Source: Patescibacteria group bacterium
Lineage (GTDB): Bacteria > Patescibacteriota > UBA1384 > XYA2-FULL-43-10
Direction of reading: 5' to 3'
Assembly (NCBI GenBank): GCA_041674405.1
Contig: JBAYVT010000006.1
Location: 25,153 to 57,152 of the forward strand
Length of the DNA: 32,000 nucleotides
Shown here: positions 2,337 through 17,101 of the stretch, piece by piece
Position numbering within the stretch: position 1 is the stretch's first letter
Layout: every line of letters begins with the position of its first letter
The notes under the pieces: generated by a model
What the model was told of the DNA's origin: nothing
What the model saw: the letters and a program-made list of their open reading frames with translations, nothing else
Database searches by the model: none
Translations under genes and position numbers: made by a program

Positions 2337-2699
2337 TCAGTTCTCAAGCACTTCGCTAACCTTAGAGGCGAGTTTTTCCGGTTCGAATTGGGCTTTGACA
2401 AAATACTCTTTAGCGCCGAGAGATCGGGCTTTGTCGGCTGAAGCCTCCTCTGGAAGATTTGTGAGCATCATTACCGGAATTGAAGATGTTTCTTTGTTGT
2501 CTTTCAGTTTTTCTAGCACGTCGAGACCGTTTTCTTGGGGCATAATTATATCAAGAAGAATTAAATCCGGCATTTCTTTCTCCGCCGCCTCTAGTGCTTC
2601 GATGCCATTTCCCGCGGTTATTACTTCGTGTCCAGTCAGCGCTTCCCCATACATTCGAAGGATTGGTTCTTCGTCATCAACTATTAAGATCTTTGCCAT
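2337..2699 (-). CDS. Receiver-only (CheY-like) response regulator
   Basis: 120 aa. Has ILIVDDEE, phospho-acceptor context DLILLDIIMP, MMLTNL and a conserved Lys (EYFVKA). No output domain. Start overlaps the kinase stop by 23 nt. Confidence 0.9.
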   Translation of the reverse strand: MAKILIVDDEEPILRMYGEALTGHEVITAGNGIEALEAAEKEMPDLILLDIIMPQENGLDVLEKLKDNKETSSIPVMMLTNLPEEASADKARSLGAKEYFVKAQFEPEKLASKVSEVLEN

Positions 2700-4008
2700 T
2701 AGTCTCCTTTGTCCTTTTAGGAATATTGATTAAAATTTTGGTGCCTTTTTTGGGCTTACTTTCGATATTTAATGTGCCGCCGTGTTTTTCAATGATGGTC
2801 TTGGCAATATAAACGCCAAGGCCCGTACCTTTGTTATCGATATTTATTGCTTCTTGTGTCCGGTAAAATTTTTCCCCGATTTTAAGAAGCGCATCTTGCG
2901 GAATGCCAATTCCATTATCAGAAACGATTATATCAACTGAAATTTTCTTGTCGATAACTTCGACTGAAACTTTGCCACCCGGGGCGTATTTGATCGCATT
3001 ATCCATGAAGTTAATAATTGCCTGGCCCAATTTTTCGCCATCAGCAAAAATAATTAAATTTTTATCAATTTCAGAAAGGGTAAGGGTAACTTTCGATTCT
3101 TCCGCCTTAGATTCTAAATCTTTGATGATTTTATGCATCAAGTCTGACATATTAACATCTTCAAGGTTTAATTTGATCTTCTCTTGCTCGATTCTTGAAA
3201 TGGACAAAAGGTTATTGGTCAGTAAAACCATTTTTTCGGTCGAACTATGAATTTCTTTTATAAATTCCGCTTGTTTTGTGCTGAGTTTCCCTTCTTTGCC
3301 AGAAATTAATAGAGAGGAGTAACCGCGGATTATTGAAAGAGGAGTATTTAGCTGGTGAGAAGTTACAGCAATAAATTCTTTATCTCTTTCAGTGAGCGCT
3401 TTTTCATATGAAACATCACGGATAACGGCAAGCGATTTTACTTTTCCGTCATTTTCGCGAATCAACGCGAAGCTTGCCTCAATGTCCGCATTTTCGCCAT
3501 CTTTTGTCACGATTCTATTTTTCACGTAAGGATCGGTTCTTTTAACTTGTGGGCTTGTGAACATCAAATCTGGCAAAAGTGAGCTATTTTTTTCAGCATG
3601 AAATTTCAGAAGATTTTGGGCGAGATGCCCAAGCGCTTCTTCTTTTTTGTAGCCGGTGATTTTCTCCATGCCCGGAGAAAAATCCTCTATTCGTTGTTCA
3701 TCGTCAAGCACCAATATTCCATCAGCAGAATTGTTAAATACGAGGTCGAGTGTTTTTTGGCGATTATTAATTTCTCGTTGTTTTTCGATAAGTTCCTCAG
3801 TTTTTCTCTGAGATTCTTCATAAAGAGAACGATTGTTGAGGTAGAAGAACACGGCAGCAAGTGTACCACCGATCAAAACGTATTGAAGCAAAGAAGATGC
3901 CCTGAATGCATCAAAGCGCATAAGTATATAAATCGTCGACAGAATAAATAAAACCCAAAAAATGGCTTCTATCGAACGTAAGAAATTATGCTTTCGTTTT
4001 TTTGGCAT
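2677..4008 (-). CDS. Sensor histidine kinase (2 TM helices, PAS, HisKA, HATPase_c)
   Basis: Two N-terminal hydrophobic helices with almost no external loop; PAS-like NSADGILVLDDEQRIEDFSPGMEKITGY; H-box FIAVTSHQLNTPLSII; N-box FMDNAIKY; G-boxes DNGIGIP and GTGLGVYI. Confidence 0.9.
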   Translation of the reverse strand: MPKKRKHNFLRSIEAIFWVLFILSTIYILMRFDAFRASSLLQYVLIGGTLAAVFFYLNNRSLYEESQRKTEELIEKQREINNRQKTLDLVFNNSADGILVLDDEQRIEDFSPGMEKITGYKKEEALGHLAQNLLKFHAEKNSSLLPDLMFTSPQVKRTDPYVKNRIVTKDGENADIEASFALIRENDGKVKSLAVIRDVSYEKALTERDKEFIAVTSHQLNTPLSIIRGYSSLLISGKEGKLSTKQAEFIKEIHSSTEKMVLLTNNLLSISRIEQEKIKLNLEDVNMSDLMHKIIKDLESKAEESKVTLTLSEIDKNLIIFADGEKLGQAIINFMDNAIKYAPGGKVSVEVIDKKISVDIIVSDNGIGIPQDALLKIGEKFYRTQEAINIDNKGTGLGVYIAKTIIEKHGGTLNIESKPKKGTKILINIPKRTKETNGKDLNS

Positions 4009-4095: not shown

Positions 4096-5145
4096 ATGAA
4101 GAGGGTTAAGCAAGGAGCCAACGTGAAGTTGAGTGGTTTACTTCGAGTAAAATCGAGAGGATCTGCAATTATCATTGCGTTCTTTCTGATGGCGGCGATA
4201 GGCGGTATTGCTTTTGCTATAGGCAGGATTTTTATTCTTGATACTTCTATTTCATCTTTGTATGAAAATGGAACAGTTGCTTACTATGCTGCTGAATCTG
4301 GAATTGAGGAAGGTATGTTGCGTTACCGTTACAACATGAACTATCAAGTGCCTGATGGGACGTCGAATGTTCGAAGATACAATCTAAGCAATGCAAGATT
4401 GAATAAATTAAGTACCGATCCTGTAGCGACATTAATCCCAAACAGCGAAAAGAAATTTTATGATTTGAATGCGATTTACAAGGCAAAATTCTATGGTGAT
4501 ACTGACAGAGAGGACGGTTCTTTTAATCTGCAGTTTTTCGAAAGTGACCAGTATGGTAAAAATGGCGATGCAAAGGTTTTCCGAATCCCACGCGATGAAA
4601 GCATAAAAATTGATATCAGTAATTTTGTCGGTTCCGGAAGCAATGATATGGACATGTATCTAAAAATGGATAATTTTGACGGACAGGATAATGGAAATTC
4701 TGATCCAGCGGACAAAACGCTGATAGAAGTGAAGGTGACCGGCACTTTTGGATCTGAACAAACAAAAACTTTTCTTGAGCGTAAAAAAGCGCTTGTTACT
4801 CCGACTACTGCTATTCCGATAGCGGATACCACCTCGAGGGTTATGCTTGCGCCAATGTTGTCACCAGTATGTAGGTATTGCTACTCTAAGGCTAACATTA
4901 TTTCATCGGTAGCAGAATCTTCACTTGCAGTTAGTAACAAGGCAGAATTATCAATCAAGCCGGTTGGCTCCGACATTTATATCGCGCTAATACCAAGAAA
5001 TAGTAGAAAAATGGCTTCACCCTGGACGACTGTAAAATCAACCGGATATTTTGGTAACGCGGCCAGAACTCTCACGGCAAATATTGACCGCCAAAGTGGT
5101 ACCGTTTATGATTTATTTGACTTCGTGGTCTACAAACACAATTAG
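4096..5145 (+). CDS. PilX_N-like putative type IV pilus-associated protein (N-terminal anchor helix plus AAESGIE motif)
   Basis: SRGSAIIIAFFLMAAIGGIAFAIGRIF...AYYAAESGIEEGMLRY resembles the PilX N-terminal domain pattern (RGxALiiaL...hydrophobic...A..aAEaGle). The remaining ~270 aa are unrecognised. In-frame GTG at 4123 has a better SD (AAGGAG at 4112-4117) than ATG 4096. Confidence 0.55.
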   Translation: MKRVKQGANVKLSGLLRVKSRGSAIIIAFFLMAAIGGIAFAIGRIFILDTSISSLYENGTVAYYAAESGIEEGMLRYRYNMNYQVPDGTSNVRRYNLSNARLNKLSTDPVATLIPNSEKKFYDLNAIYKAKFYGDTDREDGSFNLQFFESDQYGKNGDAKVFRIPRDESIKIDISNFVGSGSNDMDMYLKMDNFDGQDNGNSDPADKTLIEVKVTGTFGSEQTKTFLERKKALVTPTTAIPIADTTSRVMLAPMLSPVCRYCYSKANIISSVAESSLAVSNKAELSIKPVGSDIYIALIPRNSRKMASPWTTVKSTGYFGNAARTLTANIDRQSGTVYDLFDFVVYKHN

Positions 5146-5196: not shown

Positions 5197-5604
5197 ATGC
5201 CGGAGAGTAAAACAATAATGGTGGTTGATGATGATTTAACTCTTCGTGAAATGTACGAAGAGAGATTAAAGGCAGAAGGATTTGTCGTTACTGGCGCTGC
5301 CGATGGCGAGGAGGCTTACAAAAAAGCGCAAGAGGAACATCCAAGCTTAATTATTCTTGACATTATGATGCCAAAATTAAATGGCATAGATACTTTGAAA
5401 AAGCTTCGAGCAGACGACAAAACTCAAGATATTCCTGTAATTATTTTAACTGCGCTGGTACAAGAGATAGACAAAATCAAGGAAATGATGCGCCCAAATG
5501 ATTCATACCTTGTAAAATCCGAAGAAATGCCAAAAGATGTCGTCTCTAAAGTCTATATGGCTTTAAATGAAGGCGAAGCAAAAAAAGAAGAGGAAAAAGA
5601 ATAG
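5197..5604 (+). CDS. Receiver-only (CheY-like) response regulator with short K/E tail
   Basis: IMVVDDD, SLIILDIMMP, VIILTAL, SYLVKS; GGAGG SD 5 nt upstream of the ATG. Confidence 0.9.
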   Translation: MPESKTIMVVDDDLTLREMYEERLKAEGFVVTGAADGEEAYKKAQEEHPSLIILDIMMPKLNGIDTLKKLRADDKTQDIPVIILTALVQEIDKIKEMMRPNDSYLVKSEEMPKDVVSKVYMALNEGEAKKEEEKE

Positions 5605-5720: not shown

Positions 5721-5978
5721 TCACTGAACAGGGACAAATGGATTATCGCGCCCATATCCGGCTTCGGTTGCGGTAACCTTCTGTCCATAATCTTTAATTT
5801 CCGTGAGTGATTTGAATTGATCGGTTTTAAGTTCAACATCTTCATTATTGCTTGTTGTCGCGGTATCACTATTTTTCATTAGGCTGGAATAGACAAAATA
5901 GCCCAATACAATACCGGCTAGCACTACGATGCAAACTGCGTATACTGATATTTTCTTTCCATCAAAACTATTTGCCAT
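5721..5978 (-). CDS. Small single-pass membrane protein, last gene of the pilMNO operon (possible PilP-like accessory)
   Basis: 85 aa with one TM helix (VYAVCIVVLAGIVLGYFVY) and C-terminal GYGRDNPFVPVQ, reminiscent of the R(S/D)PF segment in PilP-type proteins. Overlaps the pilO stop by 11 nt. Confidence 0.5.
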   Translation of the reverse strand: MANSFDGKKISVYAVCIVVLAGIVLGYFVYSSLMKNSDTATTSNNEDVELKTDQFKSLTEIKDYGQKVTATEAGYGRDNPFVPVQ

Positions 5979-6600
5979 AATAAATGTTTCCTTTCAAATC
6001 AAATTGAAGCGTGCCGGCATCAACTGAATAACCGGAAATATTTACTGAGCTTAATGATGTGAACCGGGGAAATGATGCAATTTTCTGTAAAAAAGTTTTA
6101 AATCCTGGATAGGTTGTTTTAAAGGACGTAGAAAAGGGGATTCCGGTGCCAGAGTTCTTGGCTGTTGAGGTTGCTGCGGATGGTGTGGAACTAGTGCTTT
6201 CGGAGCTAGTTTTGTTTGCACTTGTGGTTTTTTCGTCCTCTTGGACCGGAGTAGCTTTTTTGGCTACTGGCTCGGTGATAGTGAGGGTGGGAAAAACAAT
6301 TGATAAATCGGTACCGAGAGCCTCCATTTGCACAACGAAATCGCTTGAATTTTGAGTATCTGGCAATAGATTCTTAACTGTTTTTTCTACGCTATCGAGA
6401 TCAGTTTTGTTTTTACTGTATTTACTTAGGTTTGAAATTGCCTCTTCATCTTTGGCAAGCTTGGCATTATTTTGTTCCAAGGCAATACGATTGCTTTTGA
6501 GCTCGTTAATTTTGGGTATGATACCAAAAATAATCACAGCTGCAATTAACAACACATATATTGAAAGAACATAATAGGATTTTGGAATTGAAAATTTCAT
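5968..6600 (-). CDS. pilO: PilO-like type IV pilus alignment protein
   Basis: N-terminal TM helix, then coiled-coil (INELKSNRIALEQNNAKLAKDEE), then an S/T-rich linker and a C-terminal alpha/beta region. Lies right after pilN with an ATGA overlap (6597-6600). Confidence 0.65.
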   Translation of the reverse strand: MKFSIPKSYYVLSIYVLLIAAVIIFGIIPKINELKSNRIALEQNNAKLAKDEEAISNLSKYSKNKTDLDSVEKTVKNLLPDTQNSSDFVVQMEALGTDLSIVFPTLTITEPVAKKATPVQEDEKTTSANKTSSESTSSTPSAATSTAKNSGTGIPFSTSFKTTYPGFKTFLQKIASFPRFTSLSSVNISGYSVDAGTLQFDLKGNIYYGK

Positions 6601-7136
6601 TTTTTGAATACTCCGGTAAGTGAAAAAGTGAATGTGTTAGCAGTACTATCAAGAACGGAGGAGCCAAAAGCCACATTGGAGAAATAGTCGGAATCTTCAA
6701 GCTTGGTTTGCAACATTACTATTTCTCTTCTTGAAGGGGCAATGCCCGAAAGCGTAAGCTTTGTAGAAGCGCTATCTGTTTGCAGGGAGGTGATTTGAAT
6801 TTTCTCAGGGACTGCCGCATCGAATTTTTGAAGAACATCAGTCCAATCAGTGCTCTGGGTTTTTAAAGTATTAAGCCTCGCTAATTTACTATTTATGGAT
6901 GTAATCCGGTCCTCGATATCTTTGTAAGATTTTAGTTTAAATTCAGCATCAGCAACGCTTTGGTTTGAGATGGCCAGTTCGTTCCTCATAAAATTATCTG
7001 TAGCCCAAATAGCGCCATATACTATAAGAAGCATGACTAGAACTGCAAAAAGGGAAGTCGAGATAAGACTAACGACTCTTTTTGTCTGTTGGTTTTTTTT
7101 GATTCTGGGTGGTATGAGATTGATCGTCGCCATCAT
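6597..7136 (-). CDS. pilN: PilN type IV pilus alignment protein
   Basis: N-terminal INLIPP (the INLLP PilM-binding motif), then TM helix and coiled-coil. ATGA overlap with the pilM stop. Confidence 0.8.
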   Translation of the reverse strand: MMATINLIPPRIKKNQQTKRVVSLISTSLFAVLVMLLIVYGAIWATDNFMRNELAISNQSVADAEFKLKSYKDIEDRITSINSKLARLNTLKTQSTDWTDVLQKFDAAVPEKIQITSLQTDSASTKLTLSGIAPSRREIVMLQTKLEDSDYFSNVAFGSSVLDSTANTFTFSLTGVFKK

Positions 7137-8134
7137 ACGCTCCTTATTGCTAAACCAAATGCGGTGATAAACCGGGGTGTTATCTCGATGTTTGTCTTAA
7201 ATTTTGGTTTAGCAATCACGGCTTTTATTTTTATGGCATCAGAAAAATATTTCTCGATGTCTTTAATTTCAGAGCCGCTACCGGAGAGTTTAATCTCGGA
7301 AATATCACCTGGCTTATAATCTCGATTTTGGTGATATTTTATTGCTTCAAAAATTTCATCAATGACTTCTCCAAAAATAGAGTCAAGAATTGGTTTTGTT
7401 TCCGCATTAATATTTATCTCAGATATATTTTTTAACCCCGGTATTGTTCCAGACATTGTCTCTAGTATCTTGTTCTTGCCGAGGGAGGCGGTGGTAGCAA
7501 GCCTGATTTCGCCCCTGTCCCAGACAGAAATACGTGATACTTCGGAACCGATACACACGATCACAAATGCTTGATTGGATTTGTCGGGAATAACTGCTCT
7601 GCCGATTGCAATCGGTTTGGTTTCAAGTGCAGCCAGCTCTAGATTGGCCATTTTTGCCATTTCCACGTAATCATCAACCAGTTTTTTAGGCGCAGCAGCC
7701 ACAAGAACATCCGTGATAGGTTCATCCGGATGATCAATTAGGATTTGATAATCAATGTAAACTTCAGATATTGGAATTGGCAGATACTGGGCTGCTTCAT
7801 TTGGGATCGCAACGGCAAGTTCGCGGTCAGGCATTTTTGGCAGCTGAATAGTTTTTGAAAACACGAATGTTTCCGGGAGGGTGGAGACAATTCGAGTTGC
7901 TTTGATTTCATGAGGTTTGGCTTTGCGGCGAGCTTCCTTGATCATATTGGCTGCCGCCGTTTTGTCTTTGATCCTGTCTTTTTCGAGAATTCTCTCTGTT
8001 AGAGGATATTCACAAGTACCAACAACCTTGACATTGTTTCCATGCCTCACAATTTCGCATAAATTTAAAGTTTCGTAACCGATGTCGAGGCCAAATACCC
8101 TGCCGAAATCGCCACCGGAAAAAAATCCAGCCAC
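7133..8134 (-). CDS. pilM: PilM actin-like ATPase of the type IV pilus platform
   Basis: FGLDIGYETLNL phosphate-1-like motif, ~330 aa, directly upstream of pilN. The track start at 8140 overlaps the SD; GTG 8134 sits 5 nt after AAGGAG. Confidence 0.85.
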   Translation of the reverse strand: MAGFFSGGDFGRVFGLDIGYETLNLCEIVRHGNNVKVVGTCEYPLTERILEKDRIKDKTAAANMIKEARRKAKPHEIKATRIVSTLPETFVFSKTIQLPKMPDRELAVAIPNEAAQYLPIPISEVYIDYQILIDHPDEPITDVLVAAAPKKLVDDYVEMAKMANLELAALETKPIAIGRAVIPDKSNQAFVIVCIGSEVSRISVWDRGEIRLATTASLGKNKILETMSGTIPGLKNISEININAETKPILDSIFGEVIDEIFEAIKYHQNRDYKPGDISEIKLSGSGSEIKDIEKYFSDAIKIKAVIAKPKFKTNIEITPRFITAFGLAIRSV

Positions 8135-8140
8135 GCCCAC

Positions 8141-8225: not shown

Positions 8226-9425
8226 TTACATCACATTCACTAAGCCGTAAATCGGCTGCAGAACCGACATGATTATTAAGCCGATACCAGCACCCATTAC
8301 AATCATCAAAATCGGCTCTAGCAAAGTGGAAAGGTTATTGGTGATATTTTCTACATCTTTATCAAAGAAATTAGCCATGCTTTCGAATACTTTATCCATG
8401 CTGCCGGATTTCTCGCCGACGGAGGCAAGCTGGCCAATGATAGCGGGGAATAGCTTGGATTCTTTAAGTACTTTTGAAACCGATTGTCCAACTTCAACTT
8501 TTTTGATCATTCGATCCAGCTCTTCTTCATAGAGCACATTACCGATTACTCTTTTCGATGTCTCAAAAATATCAAGCAGGGGAAGGCCGGCGGAAGTTAA
8601 TCCAGCAAACGTTCGCGTGAATTTGGCCATATATGTTTTTTTGAATAAATTACCAAGAACCGGAATATGCAACTTCATGCTGTCAAAAAGATGCCGACCC
8701 TCTTTGGTTTTTGCAAAATAACTTATAAGAACCGATAATATCGCGATACCAATGACGATCCAAATAATGTTGTTTTTGAGAAAAAAGGATATGGCAACGA
8801 TAGCTCTTGTGAGAGCGGGCAAGGGAGCCCCGGCATCATCGAAAATTAGTTTTAACTGGGGTATGATTACAATCAAAATTACTGCCATTACAACAATCAA
8901 GGTAATCATTACGAAGATGGGATAAACCATCGCCCCGCGTAACTTGGATGAAATTTCATAATCCTTTTCAAGCTGCACTGTTAAGCCATCTAAGACTGAG
9001 TCAAGTTTGCCTGATTTTTCACCTGATTTGACGGTATTGACGTAAACTTCGGAAAAAGAGTCCGGAAATTTTGCCATCGCATCTGAAAGCTGGGTGCCCC
9101 CTTTGACATCGTTGATAATTTCGCCAATTTCTTTTGCAAATTTCTTATTCGATACCTCTCCTTTCAGTGCGTCAAGGGCATCAACGACAGAGAGGCCGGA
9201 CTTTATCATTACGGCAAGCTGCTGCGTTAAAATGATTTTGTCCTTAAGGCTGGTTTTGCCTGATAAGAATGAAAAGACCGATTTTCTGCCATTTTCGGAG
9301 TCTATTTTTGAAATGAACAAGCCGTTATCGCGAAGTGCTAAAATCGCCCCGGCCTCATCTGCCGATTCGATTTCCCCCTTAACTATTTCTCCTTCGCCAT
9401 TTCTGGCCTGATATTTGAAACGCAT
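8226..9425 (-). CDS. pilC: PilC / GspF-family type IV pilus platform protein
   Basis: ~400 aa with two T2SSF repeats (LTQQLAVMIKSGLSVVDAL...; FTRTFAGLTSAGLPLLDIF...), 3 TM segments and a C-terminal GAGIGLIIMSVLQPIY. ATG 9425 is preceded by GGAGA; the track start (TTG 9440) is less likely. Confidence 0.9.
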   Translation of the reverse strand: MRFKYQARNGEGEIVKGEIESADEAGAILALRDNGLFISKIDSENGRKSVFSFLSGKTSLKDKIILTQQLAVMIKSGLSVVDALDALKGEVSNKKFAKEIGEIINDVKGGTQLSDAMAKFPDSFSEVYVNTVKSGEKSGKLDSVLDGLTVQLEKDYEISSKLRGAMVYPIFVMITLIVVMAVILIVIIPQLKLIFDDAGAPLPALTRAIVAISFFLKNNIIWIVIGIAILSVLISYFAKTKEGRHLFDSMKLHIPVLGNLFKKTYMAKFTRTFAGLTSAGLPLLDIFETSKRVIGNVLYEEELDRMIKKVEVGQSVSKVLKESKLFPAIIGQLASVGEKSGSMDKVFESMANFFDKDVENITNNLSTLLEPILMIVMGAGIGLIIMSVLQPIYGLVNVM

Positions 9426-9440
9426 TTGGTCTCCGGCCAA

Positions 9441-9563: not shown

Positions 9564-12092
9564 TCAATCTTTTGTTACTCTCCAGACTTCTTCCATTGAG
9601 GTTAAACCATCGAATGCTTTTAAGATTCCGTCTTGAATCATGGTCACCATTCCGTCTTTGACTGCTTGGTCGCAAATTTTACTCGACTGAACCCGTTCCA
9701 GAATTAATCCTTTGACTTCAGCATTTATATTCAATGCCTCGAAAAGGCCAATTCTGCCTTTGTAACCTGTGTTGTCGCAATTTTTGCATCCTTTTCCTTT
9801 AAAAAATTTCATTTCTTTTTTCTCAACAGCAGTTTTTTCGGCTGCTGGCATTTTGCTGATTTCTTCTTTGATTTTTGCTATCTCTTCGGCAGAAATTTTT
9901 ATTTCTTCTTTGCAATTCTCGCAGATTTTTCTTGCTAGTCGCTGGCCGATCACGCAGTTTAGGGAAGAGGTAAGAAGAAATGGTTCGACTCCCATATCAA
10001 TCATGCGTGGAGCAGCGCCTGAGGCATCATTCGTATGAAGGGTCGACAAAACTATATGTCCGGTGAGTGCCGCATGCACTGCCATGTCTGCAGTCTCAGC
10101 GTCGCGAATTTCACCGATCATTACGATATCCGGATCCTGCCGCAGGATAGACCGCAGCCCATTGGCAAATGTATAGCCGATGTCTGAATTGACTTGGCTT
10201 TGGTTAATGCCGGTCATTTGATACTCTATCGGGTCTTCGAGCGTAACGATATTGGTACTTTCGCTGTAAAGCTCATCGATCATGGCATAAAGCGATGTGG
10301 TTTTTCCTGAACCAGTCGGTCCGGTGACCAAGATCATGCCGTGACTCTTTTTCAAATTGTCGGTGAGAGTATCAAGACCGGATCCTCGCAGGCCGAGTTG
10401 CTCAATGGTGAGAATCCCGGTCTCTTTATCCAAAATTCTCATCACGATTTTTTCACCAAATGCCACCGGCATGGTTGAGACGCGGAAATCTACACGTCGA
10501 TTATCAACCGTAATATTGAATCTGCCGTCCTGGGGTAATCTTTGCTCGTCTATTTTCAAATTGGATAGAATTTTGATCCTTGAAATAACCGATGACTGAA
10601 TGTCTTTGGGCAAATCCACCTTCTTCTTAAGCACTCCGTCCAGCCTAAATCTCACCTCAACTTCCTTTTCTGTTGGTTCGATATGTATGTCAGATGCCTT
10701 ATCGCGAATTGCCCGTTTTAGAAGTGAGGCGACAATTCTAGCAGCCGGAGCATCATCAGCGGCAGCATCTTCTTCCAGATTTGAAGATTTCCTGTCAATG
10801 ACTTTTTTAGAACCTTCTTCGTCATCCTCAACTGATTCAATGGCCTGGGATACTTCGGATTCAAGCCCCTGATATTGCGAAAGAATATTGTTTATATCAG
10901 ATTCTGTAGCTAAAGTAATTTCAATATTTGCGCCCAAAATTCTCTTCAAAATTTCTTTTGCTTCGATATCTTCGGGGTCAACCATCGAAACAATAACTTT
11001 GCCATCTTGCTCTTCGATTGGCACGGCTTTGTATTTTCTGGCGATATTTTCTGGAATTCTTCCCAAAATTTCCTTGGGGACAGTTGTTTTGGACAAATCT
11101 TTATATTTGATGTCGGCTTTTTGTGTCAGCCTTGTATTCAAAATAGGGGTGCTTTTTGGGGGCAATGCGCTCTCGTGTGCTTTTTCGGCTATCAAATCTT
11201 GTGCATTGGTTTCTTGAAGCTCGCCCTTAACTTTATCAATTTTTTGCTCAGCAAGTTTTCCAATAAGGGGTTTTGCTCCGAGATCTGTTCCGCCTGCCGC
11301 AGCATCGAATATTCCGCCCTCTTTTAGATTGATATGTTCAGAATCTTTTTGGGGTGCTGGCGCTTCAGAGACCTTATCTTCTGTTTTTTTGCCAAAACCA
11401 AATTTTTCTTTGAGAATCGAAAATGGGCCTTGTGCCGGTTCTGCTTTCTCTGATTTTTTTTCTGTTTCTCCTCGATGAACTCGAATGGCGTCTTTGAATG
11501 TCGAGATTTCGTGCGTGCCGTCTTTCATAATCTCATCGTAAACATTCGAATTATTCGGTTTCGGTTTCTCGGTTGTACCTTGTTGTGCATGCTTGGCCTG
11601 GTCGTATGCCTCGATGTCATCAATATCCTCAAGATTAGCTTGTTTGCTGGCATCGGTGGTGGTTTGCTTTATAACCGGAAGAGGTTTTGCTGCGTTTTTT
11701 AAGGCAGGAGAAACTACGTTTGCCGGTGTTTTCTCGTCAGAATCTTTTATTGGAACAAATTTTTCTTTAGCTTTTGTTGCTTTGTGCATTGTTGGGTTAT
11801 CCAGAAGCTCAGATCCGTTCGCCAAAGCTTTAATGTTGCCAGAGGGCAGCCATTTGGCAACATTGGTCGGAAGCATCACCATTCGTTTGGAAGCACCGAA
11901 TTTGGGATGGTTTATTACTTTGGAAGGATAATGCACCGTATAAAAAGTGCCGAAGTTGGAGTATACGATCTTCTCGTCGCGCTCGAGGACATCTGTTACG
12001 ACAGCGCCAAAAGCAATAACCAGATTCTCTGCCTGGCGCATAGAAAGCTTAGTTCTTTTAGCAATTTCCTTTGCCAAAGATTTGCGTGTCAT
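9564..12092 (-). CDS. pilB: Type IV pilus extension ATPase PilB (GspE family) with N-terminal HU/IHF-like DNA-binding domain and ~240-aa low-complexity linker
   Basis: aa 1-90 match the HU pattern (see finding). aa ~335-408 form a GspE-N domain (IPENIARKYKAVPIEEQDGKVIVSMVDPEDIEAKEIL). The ATPase core has Walker A GPTGSGKTT, Asp box TLEDPIEY, Walker B DPDIVMIGEIRD, His box LSTLHTNDA and a tetracysteine motif CENC...CKNC. GGAGGGG SD lies before ATG 12092. Confidence 0.9.
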   Translation of the reverse strand: MTRKSLAKEIAKRTKLSMRQAENLVIAFGAVVTDVLERDEKIVYSNFGTFYTVHYPSKVINHPKFGASKRMVMLPTNVAKWLPSGNIKALANGSELLDNPTMHKATKAKEKFVPIKDSDEKTPANVVSPALKNAAKPLPVIKQTTTDASKQANLEDIDDIEAYDQAKHAQQGTTEKPKPNNSNVYDEIMKDGTHEISTFKDAIRVHRGETEKKSEKAEPAQGPFSILKEKFGFGKKTEDKVSEAPAPQKDSEHINLKEGGIFDAAAGGTDLGAKPLIGKLAEQKIDKVKGELQETNAQDLIAEKAHESALPPKSTPILNTRLTQKADIKYKDLSKTTVPKEILGRIPENIARKYKAVPIEEQDGKVIVSMVDPEDIEAKEILKRILGANIEITLATESDINNILSQYQGLESEVSQAIESVEDDEEGSKKVIDRKSSNLEEDAAADDAPAARIVASLLKRAIRDKASDIHIEPTEKEVEVRFRLDGVLKKKVDLPKDIQSSVISRIKILSNLKIDEQRLPQDGRFNITVDNRRVDFRVSTMPVAFGEKIVMRILDKETGILTIEQLGLRGSGLDTLTDNLKKSHGMILVTGPTGSGKTTSLYAMIDELYSESTNIVTLEDPIEYQMTGINQSQVNSDIGYTFANGLRSILRQDPDIVMIGEIRDAETADMAVHAALTGHIVLSTLHTNDASGAAPRMIDMGVEPFLLTSSLNCVIGQRLARKICENCKEEIKISAEEIAKIKEEISKMPAAEKTAVEKKEMKFFKGKGCKNCDNTGYKGRIGLFEALNINAEVKGLILERVQSSKICDQAVKDGMVTMIQDGILKAFDGLTSMEEVWRVTKD

Positions 12093-12114
12093 TGCCCCTC
12101 CGAATTACAAAAAT

Positions 12115-12143
12115 ATTCTATCATTAGCGGATTTATTTATCAA
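12115..12143 (-). promoter_or_regulatory. Sigma70-like promoter for pilB (TTGATA-17-TAGAAT on the minus strand)
   Basis: The reverse complement reads ttgata aataaatccgctaatga tagaat, about 25 nt upstream of the pilB start. Confidence 0.45.
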
Positions 12144-12417
12144 GCGTTTTTATGGGAAAAAAGGACATATTTGTAAATTTACTAGTGCTGTAGCTTATTC
12201 AACAACCAAAACTACTATTAGACAATTGCTTAGCAATAAAGCGACTAGCTATAGTGTTGATTAACTATTGAGCAATCCACAATCTGTTCACAACTCTGGG
12301 GAGAAGCTGGGGATAAAACCCCAGTTTTTAGTTGTTAGTTTTTAGTTATTCGTTATGGGAGCACTCATTTATACTCTAGTTTTCGTCATATGGGGGAGAC
12401 ATCTATAATGAATTTAC

Positions 12418-12520: not shown

Positions 12521-12551
12521 TAATTTCAAATTATAAATGGAGCGTAGCGAA

Positions 12552-14297
12552 ATGTCTTTGTATCGAAAATACAGGCCGCAGAAATTCAATGATCTTGTTG
12601 GGCAAGATCATATTCGTGATACTCTGCTTCAAGCAGTAAAAGATAACCAGATTTCACATGCCTATCTTTTCACTGGGCCACGCGGAACCGGCAAAACCAC
12701 AGCTGCAAGGCTGATTGCCAAAGTTGCAAATTGCCACGAGATTCTTGAATCAATAAAAAGCGGGAAGACATCTTCTGGTGAGCCATGCAATAATTGCGAA
12801 TCTTGCAAAGACATACTTTCAAATAAATCAATCGACATCATAGAAATTGATGCTGCATCGAACAGGGGAATAGACGAGATAAGAGAGCTTCGCGAGAATG
12901 TTAAATTCACGCCGGCGAAATCAAAATACAAGGTTTATATCATAGATGAAGTTCATATGTTGACCAAAGAAGCTTTCAATGCGCTTTTGAAAACTCTGGA
13001 GGAACCGCCTGCGCATGCGATTTTCATCTTGGCGACGACCGAAGCGCACAAAGTGCCGGCAACGATTGTTTCCCGTACCCAGCGTTTTGATTTTCACCGC
13101 ATCGGCAAAGATGATCTTAAAAAGAACCTTGAAAAGATCGCCAAAGCGGAAAAAATCGATATCGAACCCGAAGCAATTTCTTTGATAATTTCGGCAGCCG
13201 AAGGCGGACACCGCGATGCGATTTCGCTTCTCGACCAGGTGTCGGGAATCGAAAAAAAAGTAAGTGCAGAATCGGTCAGAAATATATTGGGACTTGTCCC
13301 AAGCGAAGAAGTGTTTGCACTTCTGGGGGCGATTTTTAATACCAATCCGGAGGAGGGATTAAAAATCGCCCATCGCTTGTTTGAAACCGGCCACGACATG
13401 GCAAACTTGAACAAGCAGATTATCGAAACACTGCGCCGGATTCTCCTTTTTTTGATGTCGGAAAAATTTCTTTTTGAAGATACAAAAGAGAATGAAATAG
13501 CTATCAAAAAAACCTGTGAAGAGTTGAACGAAAGTGGCGGTTCAACCGCCAAAATCACAGCCCTGATTGATGTTTTTATTGAATCGGGCAAGCTTCTCAA
13601 GGATGTCAACATGCCGATACTGCCAATCGAGATAGCGATTGTTGAGGGAAGCGTTCTCTTCGAGAAAATGCCAAAAGACAAATTGCAAATGACAAATAAA
13701 ATATCAAATCCGAATGTCCAAGATCCAAAAACGGATAGTCATTCCGACCAATCCGCCAGCTGGCGGAGAGCGGAGGAATCTCCAAAAGAACCTGACCGCA
13801 ATAATTTTCAAAAGATCTCTCCATCCCACTCCGCCGAGGTTTCGAGAGACAAGCAAAATCTAGATGACAAGAAAGAAGAATTAGAAAACCGAAATGAAAA
13901 AATCGAGATGGGAGAGGAGAAAAAAACCACATCTCACAACTCACATCCCGCAAAACCAGCCGAAGTAACTTCGGCCCCTGTTATTGAGATGACTCTGGAT
14001 AGTTGGCAGAAAATTATTGCCGAGATCAAAAATGAAAACACATCGCTTGCGGCGCTTCTGCGAGATTCGAAACCAGTGGCACTCGAGGGCGAAAAGATGA
14101 TTCTGGGCGTCAAATTTCCATTTCATAAAGACAAAATCTCCGAGCCGAAAAATATCCAGATCATCGAGGAAACGATCAAAAAATTGACCGGCAAAACCTA
14201 TATTGTAGAAGTTAAAATTGCTGATCTGCGAGCAAAACCGAAAGAGAAAGCATCGGACGACGAACTGCAGAAAGCAGCAGAAGAGATTTTCTCATAA
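12552..14297 (+). CDS. dnaX: DNA polymerase III subunit gamma/tau
   Basis: MSLYRKYRPQKFNDLVGQDHI, Walker A GPRGTGKTT, Zn module CNNCESC, DEVHML, SRTQRF, and a C-terminal DnaX domain (SWQKIIAEIKNENTSLAALLRDSKPV...). ATG 12552 follows GGAGC; the track start at 12537 has no SD. Confidence 0.92.
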   Translation: MSLYRKYRPQKFNDLVGQDHIRDTLLQAVKDNQISHAYLFTGPRGTGKTTAARLIAKVANCHEILESIKSGKTSSGEPCNNCESCKDILSNKSIDIIEIDAASNRGIDEIRELRENVKFTPAKSKYKVYIIDEVHMLTKEAFNALLKTLEEPPAHAIFILATTEAHKVPATIVSRTQRFDFHRIGKDDLKKNLEKIAKAEKIDIEPEAISLIISAAEGGHRDAISLLDQVSGIEKKVSAESVRNILGLVPSEEVFALLGAIFNTNPEEGLKIAHRLFETGHDMANLNKQIIETLRRILLFLMSEKFLFEDTKENEIAIKKTCEELNESGGSTAKITALIDVFIESGKLLKDVNMPILPIEIAIVEGSVLFEKMPKDKLQMTNKISNPNVQDPKTDSHSDQSASWRRAEESPKEPDRNNFQKISPSHSAEVSRDKQNLDDKKEELENRNEKIEMGEEKKTTSHNSHPAKPAEVTSAPVIEMTLDSWQKIIAEIKNENTSLAALLRDSKPVALEGEKMILGVKFPFHKDKISEPKNIQIIEETIKKLTGKTYIVEVKIADLRAKPKEKASDDELQKAAEEIFS

Positions 14298-14389: not shown

Positions 14390-15823
14390 GTGCCTCGTGA
14401 TAATGAAAAAAAACAGAATAATGAACGCAAAAAGAAGGTCGTCATTCCTTCCGGAGTTCGGATTCCGCCGCAAAATGTCGATGCCGAACGCTCAGTTTTG
14501 GGTGCTATTCTTATTGATAAGGATGCAATTATCAAAGTAGCCGATATCGTCCGTCCGGAAGATTTCTACGAGTTTCGCCACGAGACGATTTTTTCGGCGA
14601 TGCTCGAACTTTTTGATAAGCGCCAACCGATTGATATAATCACGCTTTCCGAAACATTAGAAGCAATGGAAAAGCTTAAGGAAATTGGAGGCTCGAGTTA
14701 TCTTGCGGATATTGTAAATTCTACACCCTCTGCTTCCAACATCGTTTACTATGCGCAAATTGTCCGCGACAAGGCGGTTTTGCGCCGGCTTATTGAATCG
14801 TCGGGAAACATCAATCAGCTTGGTTATGATGAAGATGCCGATATTTCCGATACGCTGGACAAAGCGGAACAGCTTCTTTTTGCCGTCTCGCAGAAATTCA
14901 TGAAAGAGAAATTTACGGCGGTTAAAGATGTGCTTACAGAAGCTTTCGATCGTATCGACAAGATTCATAAGGATAAGGATAAGGGGGCAATCCGCGGCGT
15001 GCCATCCGGTTTTCGTGATCTTGACAACATCACTGCCGGCTTTCAGAATAGCGACCTTCTGATTCTTGCTGCCAGGCCTTCCATGGGTAAAACTTCCTTC
15101 GCCTTAAACCTTGCCGAACACGCGGCGATCGAGGAAAAAATTCCGGTCGGAATTTTTTCCTTGGAAATGAGCAAAGAGCAGCTCGTCGACAGGCTTCTTG
15201 CATCGCAGGCCGGGGTGGATTCCTGGAAGCTGAGAACGGGAAATTTATCAGACGAAGATTTTCCAAAAATTGGTTATGCGATGGGAGTCTTGTCGGAAGC
15301 GCCGCTCTTCATCGACGACACGCCGGGGGCAAATGTGATGGAAATTCGTGCCAAGGCTCGCCGCCTGCAGATGGAGCATGGGCTTGGGCTGGTAATCATC
15401 GACTACCTTCAGCTTATGGAAGGAAAATCCCATTCCGGTGACTCAAATCGAGTGCAGGAAATATCGGAAATATCCCGCTCACTCAAGGGCTTGGCGCGTG
15501 AGCTTAAAGTTCCGGTGATCGCACTATCACAGCTCTCCCGTGCAGTCGAGCACCGGCCTGACAAGCGACCGCAATTATCCGACTTGCGTGAATCTGGTTC
15601 TATCGAGCAAGATGCCGATATCGTGATGTTCCTTTATCGCGAAGAGTATTATGAGCCGGAAACCTCGAAGAAGGGAATTACTGAAGTCTTGATCAAGAAG
15701 CATAGAAATGGCCCGACGGGCGGGATGGAGCTCTTCTTCCAGCCTGAGCAGATGCGCTTCCGCGATCTCGAACGCGCCCGCTCCGCCGATATTTCTCCTA
15801 AAGATTTGGAACCAGTGGACTGA
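14390..15823 (+). CDS. dnaB: Replicative DNA helicase DnaB
   Basis: PPQNVDAERSVLGAIL, Walker A ARPSMGKTSFAL, IIDYLQLM, SQLSR, RESGSIEQDAD. GTG start 4 nt after GGAGGG. Confidence 0.95.
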   Translation: MPRDNEKKQNNERKKKVVIPSGVRIPPQNVDAERSVLGAILIDKDAIIKVADIVRPEDFYEFRHETIFSAMLELFDKRQPIDIITLSETLEAMEKLKEIGGSSYLADIVNSTPSASNIVYYAQIVRDKAVLRRLIESSGNINQLGYDEDADISDTLDKAEQLLFAVSQKFMKEKFTAVKDVLTEAFDRIDKIHKDKDKGAIRGVPSGFRDLDNITAGFQNSDLLILAARPSMGKTSFALNLAEHAAIEEKIPVGIFSLEMSKEQLVDRLLASQAGVDSWKLRTGNLSDEDFPKIGYAMGVLSEAPLFIDDTPGANVMEIRAKARRLQMEHGLGLVIIDYLQLMEGKSHSGDSNRVQEISEISRSLKGLARELKVPVIALSQLSRAVEHRPDKRPQLSDLRESGSIEQDADIVMFLYREEYYEPETSKKGITEVLIKKHRNGPTGGMELFFQPEQMRFRDLERARSADISPKDLEPVD

Positions 15824-16862: not shown

Positions 16863-16939
16863 TAAGCTCGAATATCACTTGCACCCAATCAAAAGAGTTC
16901 ATCAATACGATGAGCTTTTTTGTTTAATTTGGCTTGAAT
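16863..16939 (+). repeat. 77-bp direct repeat, copy 1 (contains terminator-like hairpin plus T-tract)
   Basis: taagctcgaatatcacttgcacccaatcaaaagagttcatcAATACgatgagcttttttgtttaatttggcttgaat. Flanked by the 9-mer tgttcccga at 16854-16862 and 16947-16955. Confidence 0.9.
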
Positions 16940-17024: not shown

Positions 17025-17101
17025 TAAGCTCGAATATCACTTGCACCCAATCAAAAGAGTTCATCTACAAGATGAGCTTTTTTGTTTAATTTGGCTTGAA
17101 T
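17025..17101 (+). repeat. 77-bp direct repeat, copy 2
   Basis: Starts exactly 162 nt after copy 1. 73/77 positions are identical and all 4 differences lie inside the 5-nt hairpin loop (TACAA versus AATAC). Confidence 0.9.

What the first reader, a model, noticed from the sequence alone, without database searches (positions are those of the whole stretch)
9564..12092. HU/IHF-fold DNA-binding domain fused to the type IV pilus extension ATPase PilB
This is one uninterrupted 842-codon ORF. aa 1-~90 (nt ~11823-12092) read MTRKSLAKEIAKRTKLSMRQAENLVIAFGAVVTDVLERDEKIVYSNFGTFYTVHYPSKVINHPKFGASKRMVMLPTNVAKWLPSGNIKA. That follows the HU/IHF pattern as I remember it: M-k-eL-IA-k-gLs-a---v-af---i---L--g-kV-l-gFGtF-v-----r-g-NP-tg--i-ip----v-Fk-g--lk. 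A ~240-aa K/E/P/A/T-rich linker follows, then a GspE-N domain and a complete PilB core (Walker A/B, Asp and His boxes, tetracysteine). Characterised PilB/GspE N-termini are MshEN or GspE-N modules, and I know of no characterised motor ATPase carrying a nucleoid-protein fold. The SD (GGAGGGG) and a TTGATA-17-TAGAAT promoter sit directly upstream of the HU start, so the fusion is not a start-codon artefact. In a lineage thought to rely on pili for DNA uptake, a DNA-binding module tethered to the pilus motor could link pilus dynamics to incoming DNA or the nucleoid, or could autoregulate the operon.
Basis: partly seen in the sequence, partly recalled or inferred. Interest (0 to 1): 0.75.

Follow-up and report, generated by a model that had tools for sequence, protein, structure and literature searches.

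The report
HU DNA-binding module fused to pilus motor
A type IV pilus assembly ATPase (PilB) in a lineage of ultra-small Patescibacteria really does carry a conserved HU-type nucleoid-protein module on a long flexible tether, and relatives that have lost motor activity still keep the HU module, which suggests an undescribed link between the pilus machine and DNA.

Summary
Window 9564-12092 (-) is one 842-codon ORF. It holds an HU/IHF module (aa 1-92), a disordered ~230-aa linker, an MshEN/GspE-N domain (aa 327-412) and a catalytically complete PilB core (aa 444-838). It heads a pilB-pilC-pilM-pilN-pilO operon.

The fusion is not an assembly or start-codon artefact. More than 100 protein clusters from independent metagenomes and 27 GTDB species (titled Berkelbacteria, "Saccharibacteria" or Patescibacteria) have it. 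The apparently split or HU-less relatives I checked were truncated gene calls or a homopolymer frameshift.

New findings:
- The HU arm is as conserved as the ATPase core and the module is unusually basic (+8), but the canonical arm arginines are replaced (YTVHYPSK..HPKLG).
- The linker carries three conserved short motifs.
- At the same dnaB-dnaX-adjacent locus, relatives form a series: PilB without HU; short- and long-linker HU-PilB; HU-"PilB" with dead catalytic motifs and no pilC; and ~250-aa HU + N2-subdomain mini-proteins. The HU module is kept after the motor decays.
- A conserved T-tract element sits just upstream of the promoter.

Best reading: a dimeric DNA-binding module tethers the motor hexamer to DNA. 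This is inferred, not shown. I found no description in the searchable literature. It is a new variant of a known kind.

The parts
9564..12092 (-). HU-PilB gene: one 842-codon ORF including the stop
   Evidence: ORF; three Pfam domains; 100% identical to P0001, named by NCBI only as 'ATPase, T2SS/T4P/T4SS family [Patescibacteria group bacterium]'
11817..12092 (-). HU/IHF-fold module, aa 1-92. Family signature VYSNFGTFYTVHYPSK.I.HPKLG..KKM.MLPTN..KWMPS; arm-tip Pro63 invariant; net charge +9
   Evidence: sequence membership; pLDDT 83, and all Foldseek PDB hits with E<1e-3 are HU/IHF; conservation and charge
11118..11816 (-). Disordered linker, aa 93-325. Length varies from 133 to 313 aa among the 95 aligned long-type homologs and it is acidic on average
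   Evidence: low conservation, charge; pLDDT <50 over 104-158, 171-221, 233-279 and 297-325
11772..11792 (-). Linker motif M1, aa 101-107, T.H[KG][AS][KR]K, directly after the HU module
   Evidence: alignment of 95 homologs
11475..11546 (-). Linker motif M2, aa 183-206, N[IV]YEE.[LM].DGS.E.STF..AI[RK]VH[KR]
   Evidence: conservation island, 0.58 against 0.15-0.3 in the flanks; also detected in some degenerate forms
11385..11426 (-). Linker motif M3, aa 223-236, [SG]F[FLW]..[IL]F..K[KD]; predicted as a short helix
   Evidence: (helix 223-230, pLDDT about 61)
10857..11114 (-). MshEN/GspE-N (N1E-like) domain, aa 327-412, without the c-di-GMP-binding motif
   Evidence: 65.9 bits; solved PilBs align only from their residue ~63 onward; motif absent in all 120 homologs; the motif was recalled from memory
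9579..10763 (-). PilB/GspE ATPase core (N2 + CTD), aa 444-838, with intact Walker A, Asp box, Walker B, His box and tetracysteine
12095..12101 (-). Shine-Dalgarno-like GGAGGGG; its GGAGG core ends 4 nt before the ATG
   Evidence: sequence; similar GGAGG(G/T)G strings precede the HU start in most related loci
12115..12143 (-). Sigma-70-like promoter pattern TTGATA-17-TAGAAT with an extended TG
   Evidence: 10 of 12 matches; a pattern match only
12148..12171 (-). Conserved promoter-proximal element AATATGTCCTTTTTTCCCATAAAA (family consensus WATWTCCGCTTTTTTCGG.A..AAA); candidate operator or UP-like element
   Evidence: 12 hits within 160 nt upstream of the HU start against 0.17 expected, all in one orientation; PWM: window 15.7 bits at -79; 8 of 15 non-training loci reach 10 bits against 0.45 expected; occurs once in the 32-kb window
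8226..9440 (-). pilC (platform protein, T2SSF), next gene in the operon
   Evidence: synteny
5968..8140 (-). pilM (7133-8140), pilN (6597-7136) and pilO (5968-6600), the alignment subcomplex
   Evidence: synteny
4096..5145 (+). Gene with a pilin-like (PilX-like) N-terminus and no Pfam hit. Its homolog is the gene overlapping the HU-N2 mini-protein gene by 4 nt in L030 and L031
   Evidence: sequence; 'PilX-like' is judged by eye only; 30% identity to the L030 gene
12537..15823 (+). dnaX (12537-14297) and dnaB (14390-15823), divergent from HU-pilB. This arrangement is conserved in every related locus that has enough upstream flank

Best explanation
The gene encodes a working type IV pilus extension ATPase whose N-terminus has acquired an HU-family module joined by a ~230-aa disordered, motif-bearing tether.

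Proposed mechanism:
- HU folds only as an intertwined dimer and PilB works as a hexamer, so each motor should display up to three HU dimers on flexible leashes (inferred).
- The module is strongly basic and keeps the arm-tip proline. I propose that it binds DNA, most likely the cell's own chromosome with little sequence specificity. This would attach the cytoplasmic base of the pilus machine to the nucleoid, or equivalently make the hexamer a multivalent DNA-bridging scaffold (inferred).
- The three linker motifs probably dock onto partner proteins or onto the ATPase itself (inferred).
- The DNA/adaptor role appears to be selected independently of ATP-driven pilus extension. At the orthologous locus, related species keep the HU module, and at least the PilB N2 subdomain, after the catalytic motifs and the neighbouring pilC/pilMNO genes have decayed (shown comparatively).

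Shown: the fusion, the fold family, its conservation, its charge, the locus series and the promoter element.
Not shown: dimerisation, DNA binding and any cellular role.
For: - HU membership: Pfam 49.5/53.9 bits against a cutoff of 22.4; PDB profile hits to HU/IHF at E 1e-10; own free-HU HMM 84 bits; model pLDDT 83 with the HU order of helices and strands; all 25 Foldseek hits with E<1e-3 are HU/IHF, many of them DNA complexes.
- Genuine fusion: more than 100 clusters at 90% identity carry PF00216+PF05157+PF00437, and 25 of 27 GTDB loci have complete read-through ORFs. The 'HU-less' P0090 and P0085 are truncated gene calls. The 'split' L028 is a CCCC/CCC frameshift whose intact twin, P0112, is seen on 15 contigs.
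- The arm is functionally constrained: aa 41-80 conservation is 0.89/0.75, equal to the ATPase core. S45, N46, F47, G48, F50, Y55, P56, S57, P63, T76 and K80 are invariant in 67 sequences.
- Polyanion-binding character: HU module mean net charge +8 and pI 9.9 against +4 and 9.5 for E. coli and Bacillus HU; arm +3.7 against +1; the linker (-9.5) and the rest of the protein (-11) are acidic. A sister subgroup (P0107) has a canonical arginine-rich arm.
- Independence from motor activity: 7 GTDB species and 15 of 16 long-type representatives at 50% identity have lost the His-box His, and most have lost the Walker B Glu and/or Walker A, yet they keep the HU arm and Cys4. pilC is missing from those loci.
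- Mini-proteins: ~250-aa HU + N2-only proteins (35 clusters, Berkelbacteria) occupy the same dnaB-dnaX-adjacent slot.
- Active motor in the window: all catalytic motifs are intact and pilC-pilM-pilN-pilO follow.
Against: - Most canonical HU DNA contacts are replaced: R53V, R55Y, R61 variable, K80N, K83M and K86G/x. Only K58, P63, R3 and K88 are retained.
- The near-invariance of an aromatic and hydrophobic arm (YTVHYPS) is more typical of a specific partner than of non-specific DNA binding.
- Foldseek TM-scores are only 0.45-0.5. I attribute this to comparing a monomer model with an obligate-dimer fold.
- No dimer, hexamer or DNA complex could be modelled.
- I could not see whole genomes. I therefore do not know whether these organisms also have a free-standing HU or a second PilB, or whether the species with the degenerate forms still make pili.
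- The conserved dnaX synteny may simply reflect shared ancestry within a narrow lineage (DnaB is 74-83% identical across loci).
Confidence: 0.5

Rival explanations
1. The HU module hands off incoming DNA. Sitting at the cytoplasmic face of the pilus and competence machine, the tethered HU dimers capture transforming DNA (single-stranded or partly duplex) as it emerges from the ComEC channel. This would couple pilus activity to DNA uptake.
For: The lineage is Patescibacteria, where type IV pili and ComEC are enriched and linked to DNA uptake (PMC6744442). The module is basic, keeps the arm-tip proline and has conserved aromatic residues (Y51, H54, Y55, H62, W81) that could stack on bases. The long flexible tether would give it reach.
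Against: The pseudo-ATPase and N2-only descendants keep the HU module although pilC/pilMNO are gone from the locus. That is hard to reconcile with a role tied to an active uptake pilus, unless another pilus system exists elsewhere in those genomes. No competence genes (comEC, comEA, dprA) were seen in the window or in the loci I examined.
Confidence: 0.15
2. The HU fold has been repurposed as a protein-protein module. It would act as a dimerisation or regulatory domain that pairs PilB N-termini, cross-links hexamers, or binds PilM, PilC or the acidic linker or ATPase (autoinhibition). It would have no DNA role.
For: Canonical arm arginines and body lysines are replaced by Y, P, S, V and M. The arm is nearly invariant, as expected for a specific interface. 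A +8 module next to a -9.5 linker and a -11 core could bind within the same protein. The mini-proteins pair the HU module with the PilB N2 subdomain, which in solved PilB hexamers packs against a neighbouring subunit (the packing is from established structural knowledge).
Against: The module is more basic than genuine HUs, not less. The intercalating proline and glycine of the arm tip are invariant. A sister subgroup has a textbook arginine-rich arm (P0107). To my knowledge no HU/IHF-family member has been shown to lack nucleic-acid binding.
Confidence: 0.2
3. The module is an IHF-like, site-specific autoregulator. It would bind the conserved T-tract element just upstream of the HU-pilB promoter and tune transcription of the pil operon and/or the divergent dnaX-dnaB genes.
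For: The element WATWTCCGCTTTTTTCGG.A..AAA lies immediately upstream of the -35 hexamer. It occurs once in the 32-kb window and is enriched about 70-fold at this position across loci, always in one orientation. It is also present in the pseudo-ATPase loci L009, L017, L023 and L025. Near-invariant arms would fit sequence-specific recognition.
Against: The element is weak or absent in several loci whose HU arm is unchanged (L004, L013, L019), and absent from the short-linker and mini-protein loci (L028, L030, L031). Any other regulator could bind it, for example the conserved adjacent response regulator (window 5197-5604). Tethering a transcription factor to a membrane-associated hexameric motor would be an odd design.
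Confidence: 0.1
4. The fusion is an artefact: a chimeric assembly join, a frameshift that hides a stop, or a miscalled start that joins a separate hup gene to pilB.
For: None for this window. The only split case I found (L028) looks like a long-read homopolymer error.
Against: The same uninterrupted architecture occurs in more than 100 clusters from NCBI, JGI, ENA and Logan assemblies, down to 49% identity, and in 25 of 27 GTDB species loci. The linker contains motifs conserved at the protein level. SD and promoter patterns precede the HU start codon.
Confidence: 0.01

Closest known systems
Type IVa pilus extension ATPase PilB (Geobacter 5TSG/5ZFR/6OLJ, Myxococcus 3JC8) and T2SS GspE (4PHT, 4KSS)
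   Same: aa 314-842 align end to end with these solved proteins (E 1e-115 to 1e-129). All catalytic motifs and the zinc-type tetracysteine are present. pilC and pilMNO are in the same operon.
   Different: The first ~60 residues of the classical N-domain are replaced by an HU module plus a ~230-aa disordered, motif-bearing linker. Those residues carry the c-di-GMP-binding MshEN motif in MshE and in some PilBs. The motif is absent in all 120 closest homologs. The protein scores below NCBIfam's equivalog cutoffs for PilB and GspE (567.8 against 675.65, and 579.2 against 630.25).
Thermus thermophilus PilF (6F8L, 5IT5)
   Same: A PilB-family motor with a long, multi-domain N-terminal extension; it is the best-known example of N-terminal elaboration in this family. 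The ATPase core aligns at E 1e-111.
   Different: PilF's extension consists of three GSPII/MshEN-like domains, not a nucleoid-protein fold. This is from my own knowledge; only the alignment was tested here.
HU/IHF family (E. coli HU and IHF, Bacillus HU, Anabaena HU-DNA 1P71)
   Same: Sequence family, predicted order of secondary-structure elements, arm-tip Pro-x-x-Gly and the hydrophobic core FG.F.
   Different: The module is fused to an ATPase. Arm arginines R53, R55 and R61 and body lysines K80, K83 and K86 are replaced. The arm is 2 residues longer after the tip. Net charge is about twice as high.
HU proteins with low-complexity extensions (mycobacterial HupB/MDP1) and HU fusion clades HU-HIG and HU-CCDC81 (Burroughs et al. 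2017, PMC5499826)
   Same: An HU module followed by a long low-complexity region. There are weak co-hits to PF18291 and PF18175.
   Different: The HupB tail is basic and binds DNA itself (my own knowledge), whereas this linker is on average acidic. The 2017 survey mentions no fusion to pilus or secretion ATPases.
Bacillus subtilis ComGA (competence PilB-like ATPase)
   Same: A PilB-family ATPase of a monoderm DNA-uptake machine. NCBIfam ComGA matches at 265.7 bits, below its cutoff of 300. ComGA is reported to influence nucleoid- and growth-related processes in competent cells (my own knowledge, not tested here).
   Different: ComGA has no DNA-binding domain. The window protein sits in a pilC-pilMNO operon rather than a comG operon.
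FtsK/SpoIIIE (functional analogy only)
   Same: A hexameric P-loop motor joined by a long low-complexity linker to another module, and carrying a small dedicated DNA-binding domain.
   Different: It belongs to a different ATPase family, the DNA-binding domain is a winged helix at the C-terminus, and the motor translocates DNA itself. No homology is implied.

Membership tests
HU/IHF (Pfam PF00216, Bac_DNA_binding) | Sequence match above the curated family threshold | tested here: met
   49.5 bits in the full protein and 53.9 bits for aa 1-100, against a cutoff of 22.4; PDB profile search E 1.3e-10 to HU; own free-HU HMM 84 bits. NCBIfam equivalog models for IHF-alpha and HU-alpha are far below their cutoffs (30.7 against 111), so it is not an ortholog of any named subunit.
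HU/IHF (Pfam PF00216, Bac_DNA_binding) | Fold: two helices, a beta-sheet with an extended beta-ribbon arm, and a C-terminal helix | tested here: met
HU/IHF (Pfam PF00216, Bac_DNA_binding) | Intercalating proline at the arm tip (R-N-P-x-T-G) | tested here: met
   H62-P63-K-L-G66; P63 is invariant and H62 and G66 are invariant or nearly so across the family
HU/IHF (Pfam PF00216, Bac_DNA_binding) | Arm arginines (R55, R58, R61 in Bacillus HU numbering) that contact DNA | tested here: not met
   They align to Y55 (invariant), K58 (nearly invariant) and position 61 (variable Y/F/N). R53 aligns to V53. Other basic residues appear instead (K64, K69, K70, K80).
HU/IHF (Pfam PF00216, Bac_DNA_binding) | Obligate intertwined dimer that binds and bends DNA | not testable with these tools
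Net charge of +8 is compatible with DNA binding.
PilB/GspE secretion ATPases (Pfam PF00437, T2SSE) | Walker A, Asp box, Walker B with catalytic Glu, and His box | tested here: met
   GPTGSGKT, LEDPIE, DPDIVMIGEIRD and TGHIVLSTLHTN; PF00437 at 442.7 bits over the whole model
PilB/GspE secretion ATPases (Pfam PF00437, T2SSE) | Tetracysteine (zinc-binding) motif of the extension-ATPase subfamily | tested here: met
   C724-x2-C727 and C769-x2-C772, invariant across the family
PilB/GspE secretion ATPases (Pfam PF00437, T2SSE) | Equivalog-level match to type IV-A PilB (TIGR02538) or GspE (TIGR02533) | tested here: not met
   567.8 against a cutoff of 675.65, and 579.2 against 630.25. It is a divergent lineage-specific member, so the subfamily assignment rests on context.
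PilB/GspE secretion ATPases (Pfam PF00437, T2SSE) | Operon context with the platform protein PilC and the PilM/N/O alignment proteins | tested here: met
   pilC 8226-9440, pilM 7133-8140, pilN 6597-7136 and pilO 5968-6600 on the same strand; conserved in relatives
MshEN c-di-GMP receptor domain (Pfam PF05157) | Pfam match | tested here: met
   65.9 bits at aa 327-412
MshEN c-di-GMP receptor domain (Pfam PF05157) | 24-residue c-di-GMP-binding motif RLGxx(L/V/I)(L/V/I)xxG(L/V/I)(L/V/I)xxxxLxxxLxxQ | tested here: not met
   There was no strict or loose match in any of the 120 closest homologs. Solved PilBs align only from their residue ~63. The motif was recalled from memory and no positive control was run.

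The most novel reading that the evidence does not exclude
In one Patescibacteria lineage, the pilus extension motor has been turned into a DNA-attached machine. HU dimers on long leashes would physically couple the type IV pilus base to the chromosome or to incoming DNA. The HU + PilB-N2 unit would have become a new kind of nucleoid-associated adaptor that survives as a pseudo-ATPase or a 250-aa mini-protein after pilus-motor function is lost. This would be the first case of a nucleoid protein derived from, and built into, a secretion-superfamily ATPase.
Probability: 0.3. Interest if true: 0.85.

Novelty: new variant of a known kind. Interest (0 to 1): 0.68.

Why it matters
Patescibacteria (CPR) are ultra-small, mostly uncultured episymbionts. 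Type IV pili are among their few conserved surface machines, and are implicated in host attachment, motility and DNA uptake. How the cytoplasmic side of that machine connects to the rest of the cell is unknown.

A motor that carries its own nucleoid-protein module is a concrete, testable link between pilus dynamics and DNA. It comes with natural "experiments" in the form of catalytically dead and truncated descendants at the same locus. The isolated 100-aa module is small enough for immediate biochemistry.

If DNA binding is confirmed, the result adds a new regulatory or anchoring principle to the well-studied PilB/GspE family and a new architecture to the HU superfamily. If the arms bind a protein instead, it would, to my knowledge, be the first HU-fold module shown to have lost nucleic-acid binding.

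Tried and rejected
1. Rosetta-stone split genes. The 'HU-less' close relatives P0090 and P0085 turned out to be truncated gene calls of fused ORFs of 852 and 770 aa. The adjacent HU and PilB genes in L028 result from one extra C in a CCCC run, and the intact twin is P0112. P0110 starts 58 nt from a contig end, so it is uninformative. Only L032 (P0116) truly lacks HU.

2. Replication origin in the dnaX/HU-pilB intergenic region. This was suggested by the switch in gene orientation. GC skew left of 12 kb is mixed, and DnaA-box-like 9-mers are not enriched (6 found against 7.5 expected). Not supported.

3. A known small RNA, such as SRP RNA, in the 444-bp intergenic region. There were no Rfam hits at gathering score in the window or in 11 related loci. 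The only hit was a 16.8-bit FuFi-1 match at E 0.19. Rejected.

4. The 'YPS[RK]' arm as a general feature of free-standing HUs in this lineage. The one free-standing example (P0150) has only one relative in 5.8 billion sequences. Uninformative.

5. An internal start that would give an HU-less isoform. There is no Met between M189 and M370 and no conserved Met near the MshEN boundary (sequence). Not pursued.

6. Single or multiple origin of the fusion. A rough NJ tree of the ATPase domain places the HU-less forms among HU-bearing clades. It has no support values, long-branch problems and one misplaced sequence. Unresolved.

8. A free-standing HU gene nearby. There is none in the 32-kb window or in any held locus. 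Whole genomes could not be examined.


Full report
OBSERVATION.
- Window 9564-12092 (-) is a single 842-codon ORF.
- Pfam places three domains on it, all above the curated cutoffs:
  - Bac_DNA_binding (HU/IHF) at aa 1-88: 49.5 bits against a cutoff of 22.4, and 53.9 bits when aa 1-100 is scanned alone.
  - MshEN/GspE-N at aa 327-412: 65.9 bits.
  - T2SSE at aa 444-838: 442.7 bits.
- A profile of the N-terminal module finds solved HU and IHF chains down to E 1.3e-10.
- An HMM I built from free-standing and canonical HU/IHF proteins scores the ORF at 84 bits.
- The AlphaFold model of aa 1-100 has pLDDT 83 and the HU order of elements: two helices, a beta-ribbon arm and a C-terminal helix.
- All 25 Foldseek hits in the PDB with E<1e-3 are HU/IHF proteins. 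TM-scores are moderate (0.45-0.5). I attribute this to comparing a monomer model with an obligate-dimer fold.
- The ATPase part has intact Walker A, Asp box, Walker B, His box and tetracysteine. It aligns over aa 314-842 with solved PilB, GspE and PilF.

IS THE FUSION REAL? Yes.
- The exact protein is in public databases, named only 'ATPase, T2SS/T4P/T4SS family [Patescibacteria group bacterium]'.
- More than 100 clusters at 90% identity, from NCBI, JGI, ENA and Logan assemblies and down to 49% identity, carry the same three Pfam domains.
- A scan of 185,579 GTDB species representatives with two HU-arm peptides found 27 species, titled Berkelbacteria, 'Saccharibacteria' or Patescibacteria. In 25 of them the HU start reads straight through to a stop, giving ORFs of 632-915 aa (one of 376 aa); the other two run off the contig end.
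- Every apparent exception that I could resolve dissolved. P0090 and P0085 are truncated gene calls. The separate HU and PilB genes of L028 differ from the intact P0112 by one extra C in a homopolymer.

- Across 95 full-length homologs the HU arm (aa 41-80) is as conserved as the ATPase core: 0.89/0.75 against 0.8-0.9.
- Its signature is VYSNFGTFYTVHYPSK.I.HPKLG..KKM.MLPTN..KWMPS. The tip proline and glycine are kept, but the canonical arm arginines are replaced (R53V, R55Y, R61 variable) and only K58 remains. The body lysines K80, K83 and K86 are also lost.
- Even so, the module is about twice as basic as E. coli or Bacillus HU: mean net charge +8 and pI 9.9, against +4 and 9.5. The linker (-9.5) and the rest of the protein (-11) are acidic.
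- The linker (aa 93-325) is predicted disordered and varies from 133 to 313 aa. It contains three conserved short motifs:
  - M1, T.H[KG][AS][KR]K, aa 101-107.
  - M2, N[IV]YEE.[LM].DGS.E.STF..AI[RK]VH[KR], aa 183-206.
  - M3, [SG]F[FLW]..[IL]F..K[KD], aa 223-236.
- The c-di-GMP motif of MshEN-type N-domains is absent in all 120 closest homologs (the motif was recalled from memory).

COMPARATIVE SERIES AT ONE LOCUS. This is the most informative result.
- dnaB and dnaX lie divergently upstream of the HU gene in every locus with enough flank.
- In that fixed slot I found five states:
  - (a) PilB without HU, followed by pilC: L032, with dnaX only 127 nt away.
  - (b) HU-PilB with a ~15-aa linker: P0108, P0111, P0112, P0114 and L028.
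  - (c) Long-linker HU-PilB with M1-M3 and pilC-pilM-pilN-pilO: the window and most GTDB loci.
  - (d) HU-'PilB' whose ATPase is only 31-47% identical. The His box is lost in all of them, the Walker B glutamate in most and Walker A in some. pilC is missing from the locus, yet the HU arm and Cys4 are essentially unchanged. This covers 7 GTDB species and 15 of 16 long-type representatives at 50% identity.
  - (e) ~250-aa proteins made of an HU module, an acidic linker and only the N2 subdomain of PilB (hhalign probability 87.5%, E 3.6e-6). There are 35 clusters, labelled Berkelbacteria. Their gene overlaps by 4 nt the start of a homolog of window orf4096, which has a pilin-like N-terminus.
- The HU module is therefore kept through loss of catalysis and even loss of the whole ATPase domain. 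A rough NJ tree does not resolve whether HU was gained once.

CIS ELEMENT.
- A 24-nt element, consensus WATWTCCGCTTTTTTCGG.A..AAA, lies just upstream of the -35 hexamer. The window copy is AATATGTCCTTTTTTCCCATAAAA at 12148-12171 (-).
- A simple pattern gives 12 hits within 160 nt upstream of the HU start against 0.17 expected, all in one orientation.
- With a PWM, 8 of the 15 loci not used for training reach 10 bits, against 0.45 expected.
- It occurs once in the 32-kb window. It is absent from the short-linker and mini-protein loci. What binds it is unknown.

MECHANISM.
- Shown: a catalytically complete PilB in a pilus operon, carrying a conserved, very basic HU-family module on a disordered tether, and retention of that module after the motor decays.
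- Inferred from established knowledge of the two families: HU folds as an intertwined dimer and PilB works as a hexamer, so a motor would present up to three HU dimers.
- My best explanation (confidence 0.5) is that these dimers bind DNA, most likely the chromosome with low specificity. This would tether the pilus base to the nucleoid or turn the hexamer into a multivalent DNA-bridging scaffold, with the linker motifs docking partners.
- Rivals:
  - Capture of incoming transforming DNA (0.15). This is weakened by forms (d) and (e).
  - A repurposed protein-protein or autoinhibitory module (0.2). It is supported by the replaced arginines and the near-invariant aromatic arm, and weakened by the high positive charge, the retained tip proline and a sister subgroup with a canonical arginine-rich arm.
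  - IHF-like autoregulation through the promoter element (0.1).
  - Artefact (0.01).

COMPARISON AND NOVELTY.
- The protein works like, and is a member of, the PilB/GspE family. It falls below NCBIfam equivalog cutoffs.
- Its N-module is a member of the HU/IHF family by sequence and fold, but it fails the arginine-arm feature.
- No solved PilB, GspE or PilF has anything matching aa 1-313.
- The 2017 survey of HU-superfamily architectures does not mention pili, secretion or ATPases. CPR pilus papers treat PilB as conventional. Other full-text searches returned nothing relevant.
- The Pfam hits are precomputed in public resources, so the architecture is visible in databases, but it appears to be undescribed. 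I rate it a new variant of a known kind, with interest 0.68.

LIMITS.
- No dimer, hexamer or DNA modelling was possible and there is no biochemistry.
- No whole genomes were examined. The presence of a free-standing HU, a second PilB, or pili in the species with degenerate forms is therefore unknown.
- Taxon labels come only from record titles.
- The synteny may reflect a narrow lineage (DnaB is 74-83% identical).

Noticed in passing
L009, L010, L011, L017, L023, L024, L025 (HU gene starts at 4258, 6001, 1043, 6001, 6001, 93, 6001); also P0123-P0140: Orthologous HU-'PilB' proteins with degenerate catalytic motifs. The His box is lost in all, the Walker B Glu in most and Walker A in some. The HU arm and tetracysteine are conserved. 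pilC, and usually pilMNO, are missing from the locus. They are likely pseudo-ATPases.
   Followed up: partly
L030 7001-7765; L031 7001-7759; P0144 family (35 clusters): ~250-aa proteins made of an HU module, an acidic linker and only the PilB N2 subdomain. They sit in the same dnaB-dnaX-adjacent slot, and their gene overlaps by 4 nt the start of a homolog of window orf4096. NCBI and JGI name them only as 'HU family DNA-binding protein' or 'nucleoid DNA-binding protein'.
   Followed up: partly
window 12148-12171 (-): A conserved T-tract element (WATWTCCGCTTTTTTCGG.A..AAA) lies immediately upstream of the -35 hexamer of the HU-pilB promoter. It is about 70-fold enriched at this position across related loci and occurs once in the window. 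What binds it is unknown.
   Followed up: partly
P0096, P0098-P0100, P0102-P0104 (1004-1011 aa): PilB-like proteins of about 1006 aa with two tandem complete T2SSE ATPase domains in one polypeptide and no HU module. They appeared among the hits to the window protein; one is named 'Type II secretion system protein E [Parcubacteria group bacterium]'.
   Followed up: no
window 4096-5145 (+): A 349-aa ORF with no Pfam hit. Its N-terminus (RGSAIIIAFFLMAAIGGIAFAIG...YYAAESGIEEG) looks like a PilX-type minor pilin, judged by eye. Homologs stay next to the HU gene in the pseudo-ATPase and mini-protein loci.
   Followed up: partly
window 5197-5604 (+); also 2337-2699 (-) and 2677-4008 (-): A stand-alone response-regulator receiver (5197-5604) flanks the pil operon and is conserved next to it in relatives (53-66% identical in L004, L005, L009-L011, L015, L017, L021-L025). 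A PAS histidine kinase and a second receiver lie nearby. They may control the pilus.
   Followed up: no
window 16863-16939 and 17025-17101 (+): Two copies (96% identical, 162 nt apart) of a 77-nt direct repeat, each ending in a hairpin plus T-run. They lie in a ~1.4-kb stretch (15.8-17.25 kb) with no convincing ORF, upstream of the 877-aa gene. There is no Rfam match in the window.
   Followed up: no
window 17275-19908 (+): An 877-aa ORF with an N-terminal hydrophobic segment, rich in G, S, T and N, with repeated '...W(D/N)G..W..(L/V)G...' units and no Pfam hit. It may be a large beta-propeller-like surface protein.
   Followed up: no
window 12302-12329 (+): A terminator-like hairpin (11 bp, followed by TTTTT) lies inside the dnaX/HU-pilB intergenic region on the dnaX strand, with no upstream gene to terminate. 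The only Rfam signal is a non-significant FuFi-1 match at 12187-12333 (16.8 bits, E 0.19).
   Followed up: partly
L028 4000-4035: A public 542-kb contig (ERZ25039512 contig_69030) carries a one-base homopolymer insertion (CCCC for CCC) that splits a short-linker HU-PilB into two called genes. The same kind of error may hide other fusions in long-read assemblies.
   Followed up: yes
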